Assembly (NCBI RefSeq): GCF_044324785.1
Contig: NZ_CP172127.1
DNA from: Escherichia coli
GTDB taxonomy: Bacteria > Pseudomonadota > Gammaproteobacteria > Enterobacterales > Enterobacteriaceae
Length of the DNA: 64,000 nucleotides
Direction: 5' to 3' (one strand)
In this document: one piece after another, positions 4,900-11,192 of the stretch
Position numbering within the stretch: position 1 is the first letter of the stretch
Layout: each line of letters starts with the position of its first letter
Made by a program: the position numbers and the translations under genes
Notes under the pieces: generated by a model
What the model saw: the letters and a program-made list of their open reading frames with translations, nothing else
The model's database searches: none
What the model was told of the DNA's origin: nothing

Positions 4900-6357
4900 G
4901 TGTCTGAACTGTCTCAATTATCTCCACAGCCGCTGTGGGATATTTTTGCCAAAATCTGTTCTATTCCTCACCCGTCCTATCATGAAGAGCAACTCGCTGA
5001 ATACATTGTTGGTTGGGCAAAAGAGAAAGGTTTCCATGTCGAACGCGATCAGGTAGGTAATATCCTGATTCGTAAACCTGCTACCGCAGGTATGGAAAAT
5101 CGTAAACCGGTCGTCTTACAGGCCCACCTCGATATGGTGCCGCAGAAAAATAACGACACCGTGCATGACTTCACGAAAGATCCTATCCAGCCTTATATTG
5201 ATGGTGAATGGGTTAAAGCGCGCGGCACCACGCTGGGTGCGGATAACGGCATTGGTATGGCCTCTGCACTGGCGGTTCTGGCTGACGAAAACGTGGTTCA
5301 CGGCCCGCTGGAAGTGCTGCTGACCATGACCGAAGAAGCCGGTATGGACGGTGCGTTCGGCTTACAGAGCAACTGGTTGCAGGCTGATATTCTGATTAAC
5401 ACCGACTCCGAAGAAGAAGGTGAAATCTACATGGGTTGCGCGGGGGGTATCGACTTCACCTCCAACCTGCATTTAGATCGTGAAGCAGTTCCAGCTGGTT
5501 TTGAAACCTTCAAGTTAACCTTAAAAGGTCTGAAAGGCGGTCACTCCGGCGGTGAAATCCACGTTGGCCTGGGTAATGCCAACAAACTGCTGGTGCGCTT
5601 CCTGGCGGGTCATGCGGAAGAGCTGGACCTGCGCCTTATCGATTTCAACGGTGGCACACTGCGTAACGCCATCCCGCGTGAAGCCTTTGCGACGATTGCT
5701 GTCGCAGCTGATAAAGTCGACGCACTGAAATCTCTGGTGAATACCTATCAGGAGATCCTGAAAAACGAGCTGGCAGAGAAAGAGAAAAATCTGGCCTTGT
5801 TGCTGGACTCTGTTGCGAACGATAAAGCGGCCCTGATTGCGAAATCTCGCGATACCTTTATTCGTCTGCTGAACGCCACCCCGAACGGTGTGATCCGCAA
5901 CTCCGACGTGGCAAAAGGTGTGGTCGAAACCTCCCTGAACGTCGGTGTGGTGACCATGACTGACAATAACGTAGAAATTCACTGCCTGATCCGTTCTTTG
6001 ATCGACAGCGGTAAAGACTACGTGGTGAGCATGCTGGATTCGCTGGGTAATCTGGCTGGCGCGAAAACCGAAGCGAAAGGCGCATATCCTGGCTGGCAGC
6101 CGGACGCTAATTCTCCGGTGATGCATCTGGTACGTGAAACTTATCAGCGCCTGTTCAACAAGACGCCGAACATCCAGATTATCCACGCGGGCCTGGAATG
6201 TGGTCTGTTCAAAAAACCGTATCCGGAAATGGACATGGTTTCTATCGGGCCAACAATCACCGGTCCACACTCTCCGGATGAGCAAGTTCACATCGAAAGC
6301 GTTGGCCATTACTGGACACTGCTGACTGAACTGCTGAAAGAAATTCCGGCGAAGTAA
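4900..6357 (+). CDS. pepD: Cytosol non-specific dipeptidase PepD (M20 family)
   Basis: 485-aa ORF with GTG start, MSELSQLSPQPLWDIFAKICSIPHPSYHEEQLAEYIVGWAKEKG..., matching PepD. Confidence 0.93.
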   Translation: MSELSQLSPQPLWDIFAKICSIPHPSYHEEQLAEYIVGWAKEKGFHVERDQVGNILIRKPATAGMENRKPVVLQAHLDMVPQKNNDTVHDFTKDPIQPYIDGEWVKARGTTLGADNGIGMASALAVLADENVVHGPLEVLLTMTEEAGMDGAFGLQSNWLQADILINTDSEEEGEIYMGCAGGIDFTSNLHLDREAVPAGFETFKLTLKGLKGGHSGGEIHVGLGNANKLLVRFLAGHAEELDLRLIDFNGGTLRNAIPREAFATIAVAADKVDALKSLVNTYQEILKNELAEKEKNLALLLDSVANDKAALIAKSRDTFIRLLNATPNGVIRNSDVAKGVVETSLNVGVVTMTDNNVEIHCLIRSLIDSGKDYVVSMLDSLGNLAGAKTEAKGAYPGWQPDANSPVMHLVRETYQRLFNKTPNIQIIHAGLECGLFKKPYPEMDMVSIGPTITGPHSPDEQVHIESVGHYWTLLTELLKEIPAK

Positions 6358-6413
6358 TTATTTGATTTGCTGCCGGATGGCGTTTAATCGTCTTCCGGCA
6401 GTTTCATCCTTCA

Positions 6414-7028
6414 TTATCCTTCGATAAAAGCCATCCCGGTAAATATCCGTCGCGGGTTGCCACGTTCAATTTGATGATGGAACATTCGCCGCTGCGATTT
6501 CAGCGCCGCGCTATTTTCCTGTTGCTGTTGCTCCAGCTTCCAGGCAATCAGCAATCGCGCCAGCCGTTTGTTGGCATGTTGGCTGCGCTCTGACTGAACC
6601 TTCACGCTAATCCCGGATGCCAGATGCGTGGCGCGCACCGCCGAGTCGGTTTTATTGACATGTTGACCGCCCGGCCCCGACGAACGCAGCGTCTCATAAC
6701 GGATTGCATCCGATTGTTCCTGCTCATCAGCAGTAAAACGCCCAATGCCCAGAAACCAGTTTTTGCGCCCATGATGAGGCCGATACGGACTCGGACAAAT
6801 CCACTGGATAGTGCCGCACCAACTTTCGCTTAATGCCCATGCGTTATCGCCATCCAGAGAAATCAGCGCTGAACGCAACGTGTCAGAGTAGCGGCCCGTT
6901 TCTGTTTCCAGCACCGTTATCGCGACGTCTTGTCGGGTAGCTTCTTTAATCAACCTGTCCAGCGCCTTTTTCACTGCGAGGCAACATTCTTCCGGCCCCT
7001 GAGCTGAGGAGAGTTGTAGCAAGATCAT
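6414..7028 (-). CDS. prfH: Peptide chain release factor homolog PrfH (RF-H), apparently full length
   Basis: ORF 6414..7112; the Met at 7028 gives about 204 aa, [26 protein letters not shown]..., with GGQ motif ([16 protein letters not shown]). The start overlaps the stop of the upstream RtcB-family gene (ATGA). Confidence 0.8.
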
Positions 7029-8164
7029 CCTTTTTTCCCTCCACTGTTTTTGAGCGTTAGCACCGGACGCAGCCGCGCGACAGGAATAATTAAACCGGCC
7101 TGCACCAGACATTGCACCACGCTTTCAGCCGATTTATAGGCTTGTGGCGCTTCTTCAAAGATGAGTTGTTTATCGCGACAAATTACCCGACTGCCAAGTT
7201 CAGTACGCGAGAGTTGCGTCGCCGTGTATTTCGCTGCCAGACGCCCTTTACACTCGGTGCGCCCCCATTTACGCCCTGCCCCATGCGCCAGCGAGTGGAG
7301 TGTTTTTTCGTTCGCAACAGGTTTAACCAGCCAGGAGTAATCGCCGCGTGAACCGGGAATAATCACCAGACCGTTGTCATCCGGCGTGGCACCTTTACGA
7401 TGCAACCAGCCCTGTTGATCGCCGATTTGACAGGCGCTAACAAAGTTATGCGCCACATCCAGAACAGGACTTCCGGTGGCCTTAACTTGTTGCATTATGC
7501 GCAAAGCGATCATCTGGCGATTAATACGCGCAAACGCCAGCGCATCGTCATGTTCCGCAATATACCGTAGCGCGTCGTCACTGCCTTGAGGCAAACCATG
7601 ATGCGAAAACGAGGCAATATGCCGCTGTAAAATAGACTGCCCCACCCCCCTCGAGCCGCTATGAACCAGCAGTTGCAGATGTTGTGCATCCAGACCTGCC
7701 AGTGCAAACAGTTCAGCGTCGATGATTTGATCTACTTGTTGCAGTTCTGCGAAGTGGTTTCCGCCACCGATAGAGCCAAGCGAGCTGCGCCACGGATGCT
7801 GTGCAAATGCTGATGGCAGGTTTTCCTCCAGCCAGCTTTCTTCAGCAACGTCATCCAAAGCTGATAATCGCTTTTCAAACTTATCGGCGTTGTATTTGCG
7901 AGCGAGAATATCTGTTTGCCATAGCGCCATGCCGCAGCCGATATCATTGCCGACCAGTGCCGGGTAAAAGCGGCCTGCGGAGAAGAACGCTGCGCCAATC
8001 GGGTAGCCGCGTCCGGGATGTAAATCTGGCATCCCTACTACGCGCTGCATGTTGGGTAAATTTGCCGTGGTGTGTAATTGTTGGATCGCTAAACTCTCGA
8101 TCCACAGGTCATCAGATGCGATGGTAAATACCGCATCGGATAAGGGACGAATATATTTGCCCAT
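7025..8164 (-). CDS. rtcB: RtcB-family RNA ligase (RtcB2-type, partner of PrfH), intact
   Basis: 379-aa uninterrupted [34 protein letters not shown]... with RtcB-like metal/GTP-binding regions ([25 protein letters not shown]). The equivalent K-12 locus (ykfJ) is a fragment. Confidence 0.8.
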
Positions 8165-8174
8165 GTATCATTCC

Positions 8175-8320
8175 ATTTATACTCGTCATACTTCAAGTTG
8201 CATGTACTGCGACTGCGTTCGTTCACCCCAGTCACTTACTTTAGTAAGCTCCTGGGGATTCACTCGCTTGTCGCCTTCCTGCAACTCGAATTATTTAGAG
8301 TATATAAATATAAAAATCAG
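8175..8320. repeat. ERIC (enterobacterial repetitive intergenic consensus / IRU) element
   Basis: Core ccccagtcacttactttagtaagctcctggggattcac is the reverse complement of the ERIC core GTGAATCCCCAGGAGCTTAC..AAGTAAGTGACTGGGG; imperfect palindromic arms on both sides. Confidence 0.7.
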
Positions 8321-8481
8321 GAAATGGCAGACGAATCCAGGGCAAGAAAAAAAGAATTAATCCTGGAAAGGTCTGCAAAGAGTCATTGATAAAGGATTTG
8401 TCATGATTTACCTCCTTGCAGTTTGTGGAATAAGAAAACGCACACATACTAGGCGGGCGTTATTTTCATTGCAAGCTGGAT

Positions 8482-8934
8482 TTAATGTTGCGGTTTATAT
8501 CGCATATAAAAATTAGTAAACCACGCTCCCCGGCATTCAACGCACTGCTGCTTAACTGTCTGAAAACCATAACGTTCAAAAAAGGGCTTTGCGGTTATGC
8601 TGGCGTCCACCGTAAGTTCGGATTCAGACTTAATCAAAGGTTTTAACAAAGCGCTGGCAACCCCACGTCGGGTGTATTCCGGTTCAACAAATAACATATC
8701 GATATAATGTCCAACGCGGGTAATAAAACCAACCGGTTGTGCATTAATGACTGCAACCCGCACTTGTGATTTCGCGAGTTTATCTTTCCAGCGAGATTCG
8801 TCAATCTGCGTCCAGGCGGCAATTTGTTGTGGTGAATAATGCTGACTGGCTGTCATCGTAACCGCTCTAATGAAAATAGCGCATAGTTGCTGAAAATCGC
8901 CAGGCTGATAGTTTCTTATTTGTATGTTATTCAT
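8482..8934 (-). CDS. yafP: GNAT-family N-acetyltransferase YafP
   Basis: ORF 8482..8994; the internal Met at 8934 gives 150 aa, MNNIQIRNYQPGDFQQLCAIFIRAV..., matching YafP. Confidence 0.85.
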   Translation of the reverse strand: MNNIQIRNYQPGDFQQLCAIFIRAVTMTASQHYSPQQIAAWTQIDESRWKDKLAKSQVRVAVINAQPVGFITRVGHYIDMLFVEPEYTRRGVASALLKPLIKSESELTVDASITAKPFFERYGFQTVKQQCVECRGAWFTNFYMRYKPQH

Positions 8935-8965
8935 AATGTAAGTTTTGTTTTGAATACCCGCATCC

Positions 8966-9259
8966 TTATTCCTTAAAGTCATTGAAATCATCATCCGTCA
9001 TATCATTAAGATATTTTTCAGCGCGGCGTGTAATTTCCTCTAATCTTGCAGCACTTGGACGGAAGCGCGCCTTTATAGGCTTTTTCTCTTCTTGTTCAGC
9101 AAGCATGTCCATTAACGCTTCGAATGCGCTGGCACTTAAGAGATATCCTGCGGGGCGATTATTAGAAAGAACCGCAACTGGTTGATCAATAAAGTATTTA
9201 GCTGGGTTTTTACGTAACTCAGTGATATTGACCGATTTTTCAGCGAGAATTCGATGCAT
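8966..9259 (-). CDS. yafN: Antitoxin YafN (Phd/YefM family)
   Basis: 97-aa ORF MHRILAEKSVNITELRKNPAKYFIDQPVAVLSNNRPAGYLL...; lies directly downstream of dinB as in the dinB-yafN-yafO-yafP operon. Confidence 0.85.
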   Translation of the reverse strand: MHRILAEKSVNITELRKNPAKYFIDQPVAVLSNNRPAGYLLSASAFEALMDMLAEQEEKKPIKARFRPSAARLEEITRRAEKYLNDMTDDDFNDFKE

Positions 9260-9310
9260 ATAGTGATCCCCTCATAATAATGCACACCAGAATATACATA
9301 ATAGTCTACA

Positions 9311-10366
9311 TCATAATCCCAGCACCAGTTGTCTTTCCATTTGAGGGTCAAGCAACGTCACATGCAGCCCCACCAGACGCACACCGCGCCCGCCACGGCG
9401 TTCATCCCAGGTTTTACGCGCGGTGGCGATTAAGTCAGCTTTATTCAGCCGCGGCCAGACATGCTCCTGAGTGGTTTGCTGAAAATCGTCGAACTTTAAT
9501 TTCACTCCCTGACGGGCGATCAGTAAATCAGGTTTCACCTTTGCCAAGCGGCGTTCAAGTTCCGGGTACAGCCGCTCGATAATCGCTTCACATTCAGACC
9601 AGTGATGAATATCTTCCGCCATCGTGCGTTCCACGCCGACGGATTTTCGCAACCGTTCGCTGTTAACGTCGCGCTCGTCAATCCCCTGACTACGCTCCCA
9701 CAAAATGCGGCCAAATTTGCCAAAACGTTTGAGCAGAGTCACCAGATCACACTTTTGCACATCACCGCAGGTCCGCAGCCCCATCGCTTCCAGTTTTGCC
9801 GCCGAGACTTTGCCGACGCCGGGAATTTTTGCCAGCGGTAAGGTTTGCAGAAATGCCGGAACTTCTGCCGGAGTAATCACAAACTGACCGTTGGGTTTAT
9901 TCATGTCGGAAGCAATTTTGGCGAGAAACTTTACCGGCGCAACGCCCGCAGATGCCGTCAGTTGCAGCTCGTTGAAGATCGTCTGACGGATTTCCTGGGC
10001 GATGAGGGTCGCGGAGCCGTGGCAATGCACACTATCGGTGACATCGAGATAGGCTTCATCCAGTGATAACGGTTCAATGCGCGAGGTATAGCGCGAGAAA
10101 ATTTCGCGGATATGATTTGAGGCTTCTTTGTAGGCGTCAAAGCGCCCTGGAAGCAGCGTGAGATGTGGGCATAATTTGAGCGCCATCCCTGTCGGCATAG
10201 CGCTACGTACGCCAAATTTACGCGCGGGATAATTGGCGGTGCTGATCACCCCCCGACGTTCGCGGCTGCCGCCAATAGCAATAGGGATATCGCGCAGGGC
10301 AGGATTGTCGCGCATCTCCACCGCTGCGAAAAAGCAGTCCATATCCACATGAATGATTTTACGCAT
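9311..10366 (-). CDS. dinB: DNA polymerase IV (translesion polymerase DinB)
   Basis: 351-aa [49 protein letters not shown]..., Y-family polymerase. Confidence 0.95.
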
Positions 10367-10380
10367 TGCTCACCTCTCAA

Positions 10381-10400
10381 CACTGGTAAAGTATACAGTG
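10381..10400 (-). promoter_or_regulatory. LexA (SOS) box of the dinB promoter
   Basis: cactggtaaagtatacagtg, a CTG-N10-CAG palindrome 15-35 bp upstream of the dinB start codon; the same sequence read on the minus strand is CACTGTATACTTTACCAGTG. Confidence 0.8.
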
Positions 10401-10436
10401 ATTTCAGAGTTTGAGAAATGCGTAAAGATTCAGCAT

Positions 10437-11192
10437 TTAACGCGTTCGCTGCGAAAGCACCTGCTGCTTATCCAGCTTTTGCACCAGCGGTTGCACCACT
10501 TTATCCCCATGCTGACCAAAGTATTGATATAGCGTATCGGACGCACTTTTGGTCAGCACCATAATCTCAATGCGCCGATTGCCCGCGCTTTGCGGATTTT
10601 TGGCATCCAGCAGCATCTGGTCCGCCATTGCGCTTACCTGCATCACTTTATCTTCCGGCATTCCGGCCTCTTCCAGCACCCGACGGGCCGAAAGCGCGCG
10701 ATCGCCCGAAAGGTTCCAGTTGTTATAGATATTGTTTTTGTAGGCCATCGCATCGGTATGCCCGGTAATAATAATTTTGTTATCGAGCGAGTCGAACACT
10801 GGCGCGAGCTCCACCAGCAAAGTTTTAAAGAACGGCATAATCTGCGCGCTGCCGCGTTCGAACATATTGCGATTCTGGTCGTCTTTAATCAGCACGCGTA
10901 ATCCCTGCGGGACAATCTCCATCTCCAGATTCGCTTCCATATGCGCATCACGGGCAATGGTGTTGATACTGGTTGCCAACTCGCCAAGCTCGGTGGCGGA
11001 TTTCTTCTTCAGCAGCGCCGTTTTCTCATTCACATCACGCGCTTTTTTCTCCGTCTCTTCCGGCACCGCCACGGTGGCAGGTTTTGGCGGATGAGACGGG
11101 CTGATTTTATTTAACGGCGATAGCCCACCACCGTTAAAAATCGACTGCCCGTGCAGCGCGGCGATAATGCTTTCACGCTCGGATTTACTGAC
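10437..11192 (-). pseudogene. lafU: lafU remnant: 5'-truncated MotB-like lateral-flagellar (Flag-2) motor gene
   Basis: The C-terminal two-thirds of ORF 10437..11327 matches the MotB/OmpA-like domain (IITGHTDAMAY...NWNLSGDRALSARRVLEEAGMP...NRRIEIMVL). The N-terminal TM region is absent; the upstream part of the ORF is antisense read-through into lfhA. Confidence 0.7.

What the first reader, a model, noticed from the sequence alone, without database searches (positions are those of the whole stretch)
8935..8965. yafO toxin gene missing: yafN antitoxin is followed directly by yafP
In the K-12 dinB–yafN–yafO–yafP operon the YafO toxin gene (about 400 bp) lies between yafN and yafP. Here the yafN stop (8966) and yafP start (8934) are separated by only about 31 bp, leaving an orphan Phd/YefM-type antitoxin under SOS control with no cognate toxin in cis.
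Basis: partly seen in the sequence, partly recalled or inferred. Interest (0 to 1): 0.4.

Follow-up and report, generated by a model that had tools for sequence, protein, structure and literature searches.

The report
Toxin gene yafO deleted, antitoxin kept
In this E. coli chromosome a clean 379-base deletion has removed the YafO toxin gene from the SOS-controlled dinB operon and left its antitoxin gene yafN intact, which is a rare but ordinary example of a toxin-antitoxin pair decaying toxin-first.

Summary
On the minus strand the window carries dinB (9311-10366), yafN (8966-9259) and yafP (8482-8934), with 31 bases between the yafN stop and the yafP start.

Compared with K-12, exactly 379 bases are missing. 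The deletion lies between two TTA(T) microhomologies. The yafO ribosome-binding site, start codon and first 8 codons remain. They now form a 10-codon mini-ORF (8931-8963) whose TGA overlaps the yafP ATG.

YafN is full length and differs from K-12 YafN only by Q82K. The LexA box and dinB promoter match K-12, and no YafO-like sequence lies elsewhere in the 64 kb.

Among 5,426 complete E. coli genomes, about 52% carry yafO and about 48% lack both yafN and yafO, the published two-gene form. Only two share this junction. The window's own lineage appears on about 268 public contigs, and Escherichia sp. E1V33 has the same deletion.

Other strains lost yafO by a nonsense mutation or an IS1-associated deletion while keeping yafN. 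The best reading is toxin-first decay of a chromosomal type II module, leaving an orphan antitoxin of unproven function.

Interest is low. This is a rare third architecture of an operon already known to vary in gene content.

The parts
10383..10398 (-). LexA (SOS) box of the dinB promoter. It reads CTGTATACTTTACCAG on the minus strand and is overlapped by sigma-70-like hexamers at 10417-10390.
   Evidence: Pattern match CTG-N10-CAG. Promoter-like site. No mismatch to K-12 between 10326 and 10407.
9311..10366 (-). dinB, DNA polymerase IV (351 aa), first gene of the operon.
   Evidence: ORF. Pfam IMS, IMS_HHH and IMS_C. Annotated as dinB in collinear genomes.
9310..9339 (-). Promoter-like hexamers (TGGAAA, 18 nt, TATGAT) at the end of dinB, just upstream of yafN. 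This is a candidate for the published second promoter upstream of yafN.
   Evidence: Consensus scan only. The existence of a yafN-proximal promoter is taken from PMC7781912, which cites McKenzie 2003. It was not shown here.
8966..9259 (-). yafN, an intact Phd/YefM-type antitoxin gene (97 aa) that is now an orphan.
   Evidence: NCBIfam NF007300 equivalog, 196.7 bits against cut-off 99, positions 1-97 of 97. Pfam PF02604. One substitution, Q82K, against K-12. This exact protein is very common and normally sits next to yafO.
8969..8974 (-). AAGGAA, the former yafO Shine-Dalgarno sequence. It lies inside the last yafN codons, 6 nt before the remnant ATG.
   Evidence: Read directly from the sequence. 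Its function is inferred.
8931..8963 (-). yafO remnant, now a 10-codon mini-ORF (MRVFKTKLTL*). The first 8 codons are those of yafO. Its TGA (8933-8931) overlaps the yafP ATG (8934-8932) as ATGA.
   Evidence: Translation. Alignment to K-12. tblastn remnant hit at 8940-8963.
8938..8941 (-). Deletion junction. TTA (8941-8939) is the microhomology present at both ends of the deleted segment in K-12. Position 8938 is C here, where yafO-bearing strains and Escherichia sp. E1V33 have T.
8482..8934 (-). yafP, a GNAT acetyltransferase (150 aa) and the last gene of the operon. It has no recognisable Shine-Dalgarno sequence of its own.
   Evidence: NCBIfam NF007338, 321 bits. Pfam Acetyltransf_10. Upstream sequence read directly. 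The lack of an SD was also noted for the two-gene form in PMC3105422.

Best explanation
A single 379-base deletion between two short direct repeats (TTAT...TTAT in K-12-like sequence) removed codons 9-132 of yafO, its stop codon and the first bases of the yafO-yafP spacer in an ancestor of this E. coli lineage. The ribosome-dependent mRNA interferase YafO is therefore gone.

Losing the toxin is harmless, whereas losing the antitoxin first would not be. That is why yafN survives intact as an orphan antitoxin gene. It is still transcribed from the LexA-controlled dinB promoter, and probably also from the promoter upstream of yafN.

The deletion length is 1 modulo 3. This puts the retained yafO start into a frame that ends at a TGA overlapping the yafP ATG. 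Ribosomes that load at the old yafO ribosome-binding site translate 10 codons and can reinitiate on yafP, which has no Shine-Dalgarno sequence of its own. yafP expression is probably preserved in this way, much like the dinB-yafP ATGA overlap of the published two-gene operon.

Shown here: the deletion, its boundaries, the intact yafN, yafP, dinB and LexA box, and the rarity and distribution of the allele.

Inferred: the microhomology mechanism, continued expression of yafN, translational coupling to yafP, and that orphan YafN is a largely neutral leftover with no new function.
For: The gap is a clean 379 bases relative to K-12 and to the closest genome, N3.

The retained yafO 5' end rules out the idea that yafO was never present. 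All 19 more distant YafN homologs found in other genera sit directly upstream of a YafO homolog. E. whittamii and another divergent Escherichia have the four-gene operon, so the yafN-yafO pair is the ancestral unit.

Escherichia sp. E1V33 carries the same deletion with the junction TTAT. That is exactly the product expected from recombination or slippage between the two TTAT repeats.

yafO has been lost independently by other routes while yafN stayed intact. These are a nonsense codon E66* in CP164244.1, K120* in SCPM-O-B-8794, and an IS1-adjacent deletion in KCTC 2571.

The allele is rare. It occurs in 2 of 5,426 complete genomes with the C junction and in none with the T junction, while yafO DNA is present in 2,844 genomes. 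It is fixed in the window's lineage: the exact YafP is on 268 contigs, and all 24 contigs read lack yafO.

Close YafO homologs on plasmids occur only in 12 Escherichia records and 1 Shigella record. The two examined are large E. coli K-12 laboratory plasmids with YafO 100% identical to the chromosomal protein. There is thus no obvious mobile toxin for orphan YafN to neutralise.

Orphan antitoxins are reported as abundant in E. coli (PMC10790755).
Against: The junction reads TTAC, not the TTAT expected from simple microhomology deletion. An extra T-to-C change or a more complex event is therefore needed.

The identical C-type junction occurs in three E. coli backgrounds whose flanks differ by 3-4%. 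This needs either spread by short-tract recombination or recurrence, and it could hint at selection for the allele.

yafN shows no disruption in any of the four deletion-bearing backgrounds. That fits recent neutrality but also fits retained function.

No expression data exist here for yafN, the mini-ORF or yafP.
Confidence: 0.85

Rival explanations
1. Orphan YafN has been kept for a function. Possible functions are an anti-addiction or immunity factor against incoming YafO-like toxins on mobile elements, cross-neutralisation of another chromosomal toxin, or regulation of transcription. On this view the yafO-deleted allele has spread between lineages because it is advantageous.
For: The identical junction, including the derived C at 8938, is found in three unrelated E. 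coli backgrounds. yafN is intact in all four deletion-bearing backgrounds. Such roles are proposed in general for orphan antitoxins (PMC10790755). Distant YafO-family toxins (32-37% identity) exist on Klebsiella plasmids.
Against: The allele is very rare, at 2 of about 2,800 yafN-bearing complete genomes, with no hit in the metagenome scan. About half of all E. coli have dispensed with yafN altogether (PMC3105422). Close YafO on E. coli plasmids is confined to a handful of records, and those examined carry K-12-identical YafO. Two deletion-bearing backgrounds carry lineage-specific changes in the acidic C-terminal tail (D90N and D92E in MEI003, D91E in E1V33). That is, if anything, a hint of relaxed constraint.
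Confidence: 0.1
2. The three-gene arrangement is ancestral, and yafO was inserted later in K-12-like strains.
For: None beyond the bare gene order.
Against: The first 22-25 bases of yafO, including its start codon and ribosome-binding site, are still present at the junction. yafN-yafO pairs are adjacent in all 19 other genera sampled. E. fergusonii (PMC3105422) and E. whittamii have four genes.
Confidence: 0.01
3. The gap is a sequencing or assembly artefact, or an engineered deletion.
For: None.
Against: The same junction occurs in 24 independently assembled contigs carrying the same YafP. It also occurs in two complete genomes from different sources, and with one base different in Escherichia sp. 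E1V33. There is no scar or cassette sequence at the junction.
Confidence: 0.01
4. The deletion arose independently several times at the same microhomology and does not have a single origin followed by recombination.
For: The flanking haplotypes of the window, GPT24-02, MEI003 and E1V33 differ. The identical tract shared with the window is at most 115-157 bases. E1V33 has a T-type junction. Toxin loss by other routes is recurrent.
Against: Three backgrounds share the unexpected C at 8938. None of the 16 yafO-bearing loci examined has C at either repeat. No yafO-bearing complete genome gave a perfect two-piece match to the junction. The stretch around the junction is nearly invariant in all strains, so short recombination tracts would leave no trace.
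Confidence: 0.25

Closest known systems
E. coli K-12 dinB-yafN-yafO-yafP operon (SOS-regulated type II toxin-antitoxin module YafNO inside the Pol IV operon)
   Same: The gene order, strand and neighbours (lafU upstream, rtcB-prfH and pepD downstream) are the same. The LexA box is identical. YafN is 96 of 97 residues identical and YafP 140 of 150.
   Different: 379 bases covering yafO codons 9-132 and its stop are missing. A 10-codon mini-ORF replaces yafO and overlaps the yafP start.
Two-gene dinB-yafP operon of CFT073-like strains (Gutierrez et al. 2011, PMC3105422)
   Same: This is another natural deletion variant of the same operon. There too the reading frame upstream of yafP ends in a TGA that overlaps the yafP ATG (ATGA), and yafP has no Shine-Dalgarno sequence (alignment; PMC3105422).
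   Different: That form lost both yafN and yafO and is common, at about 48% of complete genomes. The form here lost only yafO, keeps the antitoxin and is rare, at 2 of 5,426 complete genomes plus the window's lineage.
Orphan antitoxins and decaying chromosomal type II toxin-antitoxin loci in E. coli (for example the survey in PMC10790755)
   Same: An intact antitoxin gene sits without its adjacent toxin as a result of gene loss.
   Different: Here the event can be reconstructed to the base, and the antitoxin is embedded in a larger SOS operon and is not a stand-alone locus.

Membership tests
YafN antitoxin (NCBIfam NF007300 equivalog; Phd/YefM superfamily, Pfam PF02604) | Full-length match to the curated YafN equivalog model above its cut-off | tested here: met
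   196.7 bits against cut-off 99, positions 1-97 of 97. PF02604 at 31.5 bits against 29.8.
YafN antitoxin (NCBIfam NF007300 equivalog; Phd/YefM superfamily, Pfam PF02604) | Genomic position immediately downstream of dinB, in the same orientation | tested here: met
   There is a 51-base gap after the dinB stop, the same as in K-12.
YafN antitoxin (NCBIfam NF007300 equivalog; Phd/YefM superfamily, Pfam PF02604) | Neutralises YafO and is proteolytically labile | not testable with these tools
   This can only be inferred from 96/97 identity to K-12 YafN.
Complete type II toxin-antitoxin module YafNO | A YafO toxin gene (PF13957, about 132 aa) directly downstream of yafN | tested here: not met
   Only 8 codons of yafO remain. 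Neighbouring loci with the same YafN do carry a 132-aa PF13957 protein.
Complete type II toxin-antitoxin module YafNO | A cognate toxin anywhere else in the genome (split module) | tested here: inconclusive
   There is no YafO-like sequence in the 64-kb window. The rest of the genome is not available.
SOS (LexA) regulon operon dinB-yafNOP | A LexA box and promoter upstream of dinB, with all genes on one strand and short or overlapping junctions | tested here: met
   CTG-N10-CAG box at 10383-10398, identical to K-12. Promoter-like hexamers. Gaps of 51 and 31 bases. Transcription itself was not tested.
Published dinB operon architectures (four-gene and two-gene; PMC3105422) | Either all four genes are present, or dinB and yafP are fused with an ATGA overlap | tested here: not met
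   This is a three-gene form, dinB-yafN-yafP. Neither published form fits.

The most novel reading that the evidence does not exclude
The yafO-deleted allele may not be a neutral scar. It could be a selected, recombinationally spreading allele. The same derived junction (TTAC) in three unrelated E. coli backgrounds would then reflect repeated import of a cassette that does three things. It removes the SOS- and starvation-induced translation inhibitor. It keeps YafN for a toxin-independent or cross-protective role. It uses the 10-codon yafO remnant as a dedicated coupling ORF for YafP synthesis.
Probability: 0.08. Interest if true: 0.4.

Novelty: new member of a known kind. Interest (0 to 1): 0.15.

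Why it matters
The finding matters mostly as a caution and a small natural experiment.

It shows that the dinB operon has at least three natural architectures, not the two described. It documents to the base how a chromosomal toxin-antitoxin module decays toxin-first.

It also provides natural strains in which YafN and YafP are expressed from the SOS operon without YafO. Such strains could be used to ask whether YafN has any role of its own, and whether yafP translation depends on an upstream overlapping reading frame.

It does not change the current understanding of toxin-antitoxin systems or the SOS response.

Tried and rejected
1. I looked for a yafO-bearing parent allele with C at either TTAT repeat, or with a 15-base in-frame deletion between the AACTTA repeats, which would be a possible two-step route to the TTAC junction. 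None was found among 16 yafO-bearing loci. No complete genome gave a perfect two-piece match to the 91-base junction query. The origin of the C stays unexplained.

2. I tried to identify the source lineage.
- No complete RefSeq E. coli genome is closer than strain N3, at 98.1% over 1-20 kb and 99.3-99.4% over 20-64 kb.
- The source genome was not found among the species-representative genomes.
- The exact YafP is labelled E. coli and is seen on 268 contigs.
- Neither phylogroup nor sequence type could be assigned.

3. A metagenome scan for the junction in either form found nothing.

4. I tried a subtraction test for a second yafO copy in the two complete deletion-bearing genomes, using counts of yafO-positive against yafN-positive genomes. 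The counts do not match closely enough to use.

5. The Singletary 2009 paper on YafNO is not held. Statements on the two promoters and on YafO activity come from the review PMC7781912.

6. The RNA structure of the junction region is no more stable than shuffled sequence, with z = -0.07. No Rfam family matches the junction.

7. A very stable hairpin upstream of rtcB briefly looked like a mimic of the 16S rRNA decoding site. It turned out to be an ERIC/IRU repeat.

Full report
**What is at the coordinates**

The window is E. coli chromosome. Its closest complete genome is strain N3, at 98.1% identity over 1-20 kb and 99.3-99.4% over 20-64 kb. The exact YafP protein is labelled E. coli in public sources.

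On the minus strand lie:
- dinB, 9311-10366
- a 97-aa ORF, 8966-9259
- a 150-aa ORF, 8482-8934

The 97-aa protein matches the curated YafN equivalog NF007300 from end to end, at 196.7 bits against a cut-off of 99. It also matches Pfam PhdYeFM_antitox. It differs from K-12 YafN only by Q82K.

The 150-aa protein is YafP (NF007338, 321 bits).

**What happened**

Alignment with K-12 W3110 shows a single gap of 379 bases and no other rearrangement. The nearest genome, N3, is collinear over 20 kb except for the same 379 bases.

The 31-base spacer is made of three pieces:
- GG
- the yafO start codon and the next 19-22 bases (ATGCGGGTATTCAAAACAAAAC)
- the last bases of the yafO-yafP spacer

In K-12 both ends of the deleted segment carry TTAT (AAAAC-TTAT-TCGCC at the 5' end, TGAAT-TTAT-ATTATG at the 3' end). 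The event therefore looks like a microhomology-mediated deletion. tblastn with K-12 YafO finds only the 8-residue remnant in the whole window.

The remnant now reads ATG CGG GTA TTC AAA ACA AAA CTT ACA TTA TGA (MRVFKTKLTL*, 8963-8931). Its TGA overlaps the yafP ATG as ATGA.

The old yafO Shine-Dalgarno sequence (AAGGAA, 8974-8969) is retained inside the end of yafN. yafP itself has no recognisable Shine-Dalgarno sequence, as Gutierrez et al. also noted for the two-gene form (PMC3105422). I infer that yafP translation is coupled to the mini-ORF. This was not tested.

**Direction of the change**

The retained yafO 5' end shows that this is a deletion and not a never-inserted state.

A scan of species-representative genomes with YafN found 22 loci:
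- E. whittamii and E. coli SCPM-O-B-8794 have dinB-yafN-yafO-yafP.
- Nineteen loci from other genera, among them Serratia, Klebsiella, Pantoea, Pectobacterium, Dickeya and Halovibrio, have yafN directly followed by a yafO homolog, with no dinB or yafP nearby.
- Escherichia sp. E1V33 has the same 379-base deletion.

The E1V33 junction reads AAAAC-TTAT-ATTATG. That is precisely the product expected from the two TTAT repeats.

The window reads TTAC. None of the 16 yafO-bearing loci I examined has C at either repeat. The C is most simply a later T-to-C change, but this is unproven.

**How common it is**

Among 5,426 complete RefSeq E. coli genomes:
- yafO DNA is present in 2,844.
- About 2,600 have dinB fused to yafP with neither yafN nor yafO. 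This is the published two-gene form (PMC3105422).
- A 40-base probe that can match only across the junction hits just two genomes, GPT24-02 (NZ_OZ282453.1) and MEI003 (NZ_CP071263.1).
- The T-type junction hits none.

A metagenome scan for either junction found nothing.

The window's own lineage is absent from the complete-genome set but is real. Its exact YafP occurs on 268 contigs. All 24 contigs read have dinB-yafN-yafP without yafO, and the two fetched loci (L005, L006) are identical to the window over the 2.2 kb compared.

**One origin or several**

The window, GPT24-02 and MEI003 share the junction, including the C at 8938. Their flanks nevertheless differ by 3-4%: 30-51 differences in dinB and 11-20 in yafP. 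The tract identical to the window is at most 8859-9015 for GPT24-02 and 8872-8986 for MEI003.

That central stretch is almost invariant in all strains. Short recombination tracts would therefore be invisible. I favour a single origin of the C-type allele followed by recombination, but I cannot exclude recurrence.

**Other routes to the same end state**

Loci carrying the same YafN protein normally carry a 132-aa YafO. Three exceptions were seen:
- CP164244.1 has yafO with a stop at codon 66.
- SCPM-O-B-8794 has a stop at codon 120.
- KCTC 2571 lost the 3' two-thirds of yafO and all of yafP next to an IS1, and keeps yafN.

Toxin loss with antitoxin retention is thus recurrent at this locus. This fits the asymmetry expected of a toxin-antitoxin pair: the toxin can be lost freely, but the antitoxin cannot be lost first.

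**What the orphan YafN probably does**

From the review PMC7781912, YafO is a ribosome-associated endoribonuclease that cuts mRNA 11-13 nt downstream of the start codon. The same review states that yafNO is transcribed both from the LexA-controlled dinB promoter and from a promoter upstream of yafN.

In the window the LexA box (10383-10398) and its surroundings are identical to K-12. Promoter-like hexamers lie at 10417-10390 and 9339-9310. yafN is therefore probably still expressed and SOS-inducible.

I find no positive evidence for a new role:
- The allele is rare.
- Half of the species lacks yafN entirely.
- Close YafO homologs on plasmids are few (12 Escherichia and 1 Shigella record). The two examined are E. 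coli K-12 laboratory plasmids with YafO 100% identical to the chromosomal protein.
- Two deletion-bearing backgrounds carry private changes in the acidic C-terminal tail of YafN, D90N and D92E in MEI003 and D91E in E1V33.

Orphan antitoxins are reported as abundant in E. coli (PMC10790755). My best reading, at 0.85, is a neutral or nearly neutral leftover of toxin-first decay with operon function otherwise preserved. A retained function such as anti-addiction, cross-neutralisation or regulation gets about 0.1.

**Comparison with what is known, and verdict**

The locus passes the membership tests for YafN, YafP, DinB and the LexA-controlled operon. It fails the test for a complete YafNO module.

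It fits neither published architecture of the operon, which are four genes or the two-gene ATGA fusion (PMC3105422). It is a third, rare architecture. The kind of event, a deletion polymorphism in this operon that leaves an orphan antitoxin, is well known.

Novelty is modest and interest is low, at 0.15.

Noticed in passing
window 8182-8305 (minus strand), between yafP and rtcB: A 124-nt, very stable hairpin (MFE -52.2 kcal/mol, z = -8.35) matches Rfam RF02818 'V_AS5' end to end but below its gathering score (46.7 against 96 bits). It contains the ERIC1R and ERIC2 primer sequences, so from my own knowledge it is an ERIC/IRU intergenic repeat. Its inner roughly 64 nt are absent in several other strains (L007, L009-L013, L018). 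The Rfam family may itself be an ERIC copy.
   Followed up: partly
window 6414-8164 (minus strand): The rtcB2 (7025-8164) and prfH (6414-7028) genes are intact and overlap by ATGA. This is the ribosome rescue and repair pair that protects against colicin E3 (PMC9223846, PMC9304027). K-12, GPT24-02 and MEI003 carry only deletion remnants of it.
   Followed up: partly
window about 5000-13000: This segment, from pepD to the flhA-like remnant, is 2.2-4.1% diverged from the otherwise closest genome, N3. The flanks are 0.3-2.1% diverged and 20-64 kb about 0.6-0.7%. The dinB operon region is thus a separate recombinant haplotype that was not found in any complete RefSeq E. coli genome.
   Followed up: partly
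window 8482-8934 (yafP) and loci L001-L020: YafP accumulates many amino-acid changes relative to silent ones. Against K-12 the window has 10 nonsynonymous and 7 synonymous codons, and several other strains have 13 against 3-4. YafN is nearly invariant. This suggests relaxed or diversifying selection on yafP.
   Followed up: no
L016 2797-3195 (CP164244.1); L020 3297-3692 (E. coli SCPM-O-B-8794); L042 (KCTC 2571, NZ_CP147025.1): These are independent yafO-inactivating alleles that keep yafN intact: stop codons at positions 66 and 120, and an IS1-adjacent deletion that removed the yafO 3' part together with yafP.
   Followed up: partly
window 8482-8994 (minus strand): The deletion leaves the yafP frame open upstream of its start. 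A 170-aa ORF beginning inside yafN is therefore listed mechanically. Gene callers on related contigs use the 150-aa start. This is a possible annotation trap.
   Followed up: no
window 10437-12906: A lafU-like ORF (minus strand) and a 579-aa FlhA-like ORF (plus strand) overlap head to head around 11167-11327. In collinear genomes the FlhA-like gene is annotated as an N-terminally truncated pseudogene. From my own knowledge this is the known scar of the deleted Flag-2 lateral flagellar cluster, as in K-12.
   Followed up: no
window about 20400-50000: By collinearity with N3, this region holds an ISAs1-family transposase pseudogene, an Rhs core protein with VgrG and Hcp, and a full type VI secretion cluster (tssB to tssM). 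It is followed by dnaQ-rnhA and the end of an rRNA operon. In N3, tssA, the VasL-domain gene and the Rhs gene are annotated as frameshifted. Their state in the window was not checked.
   Followed up: no
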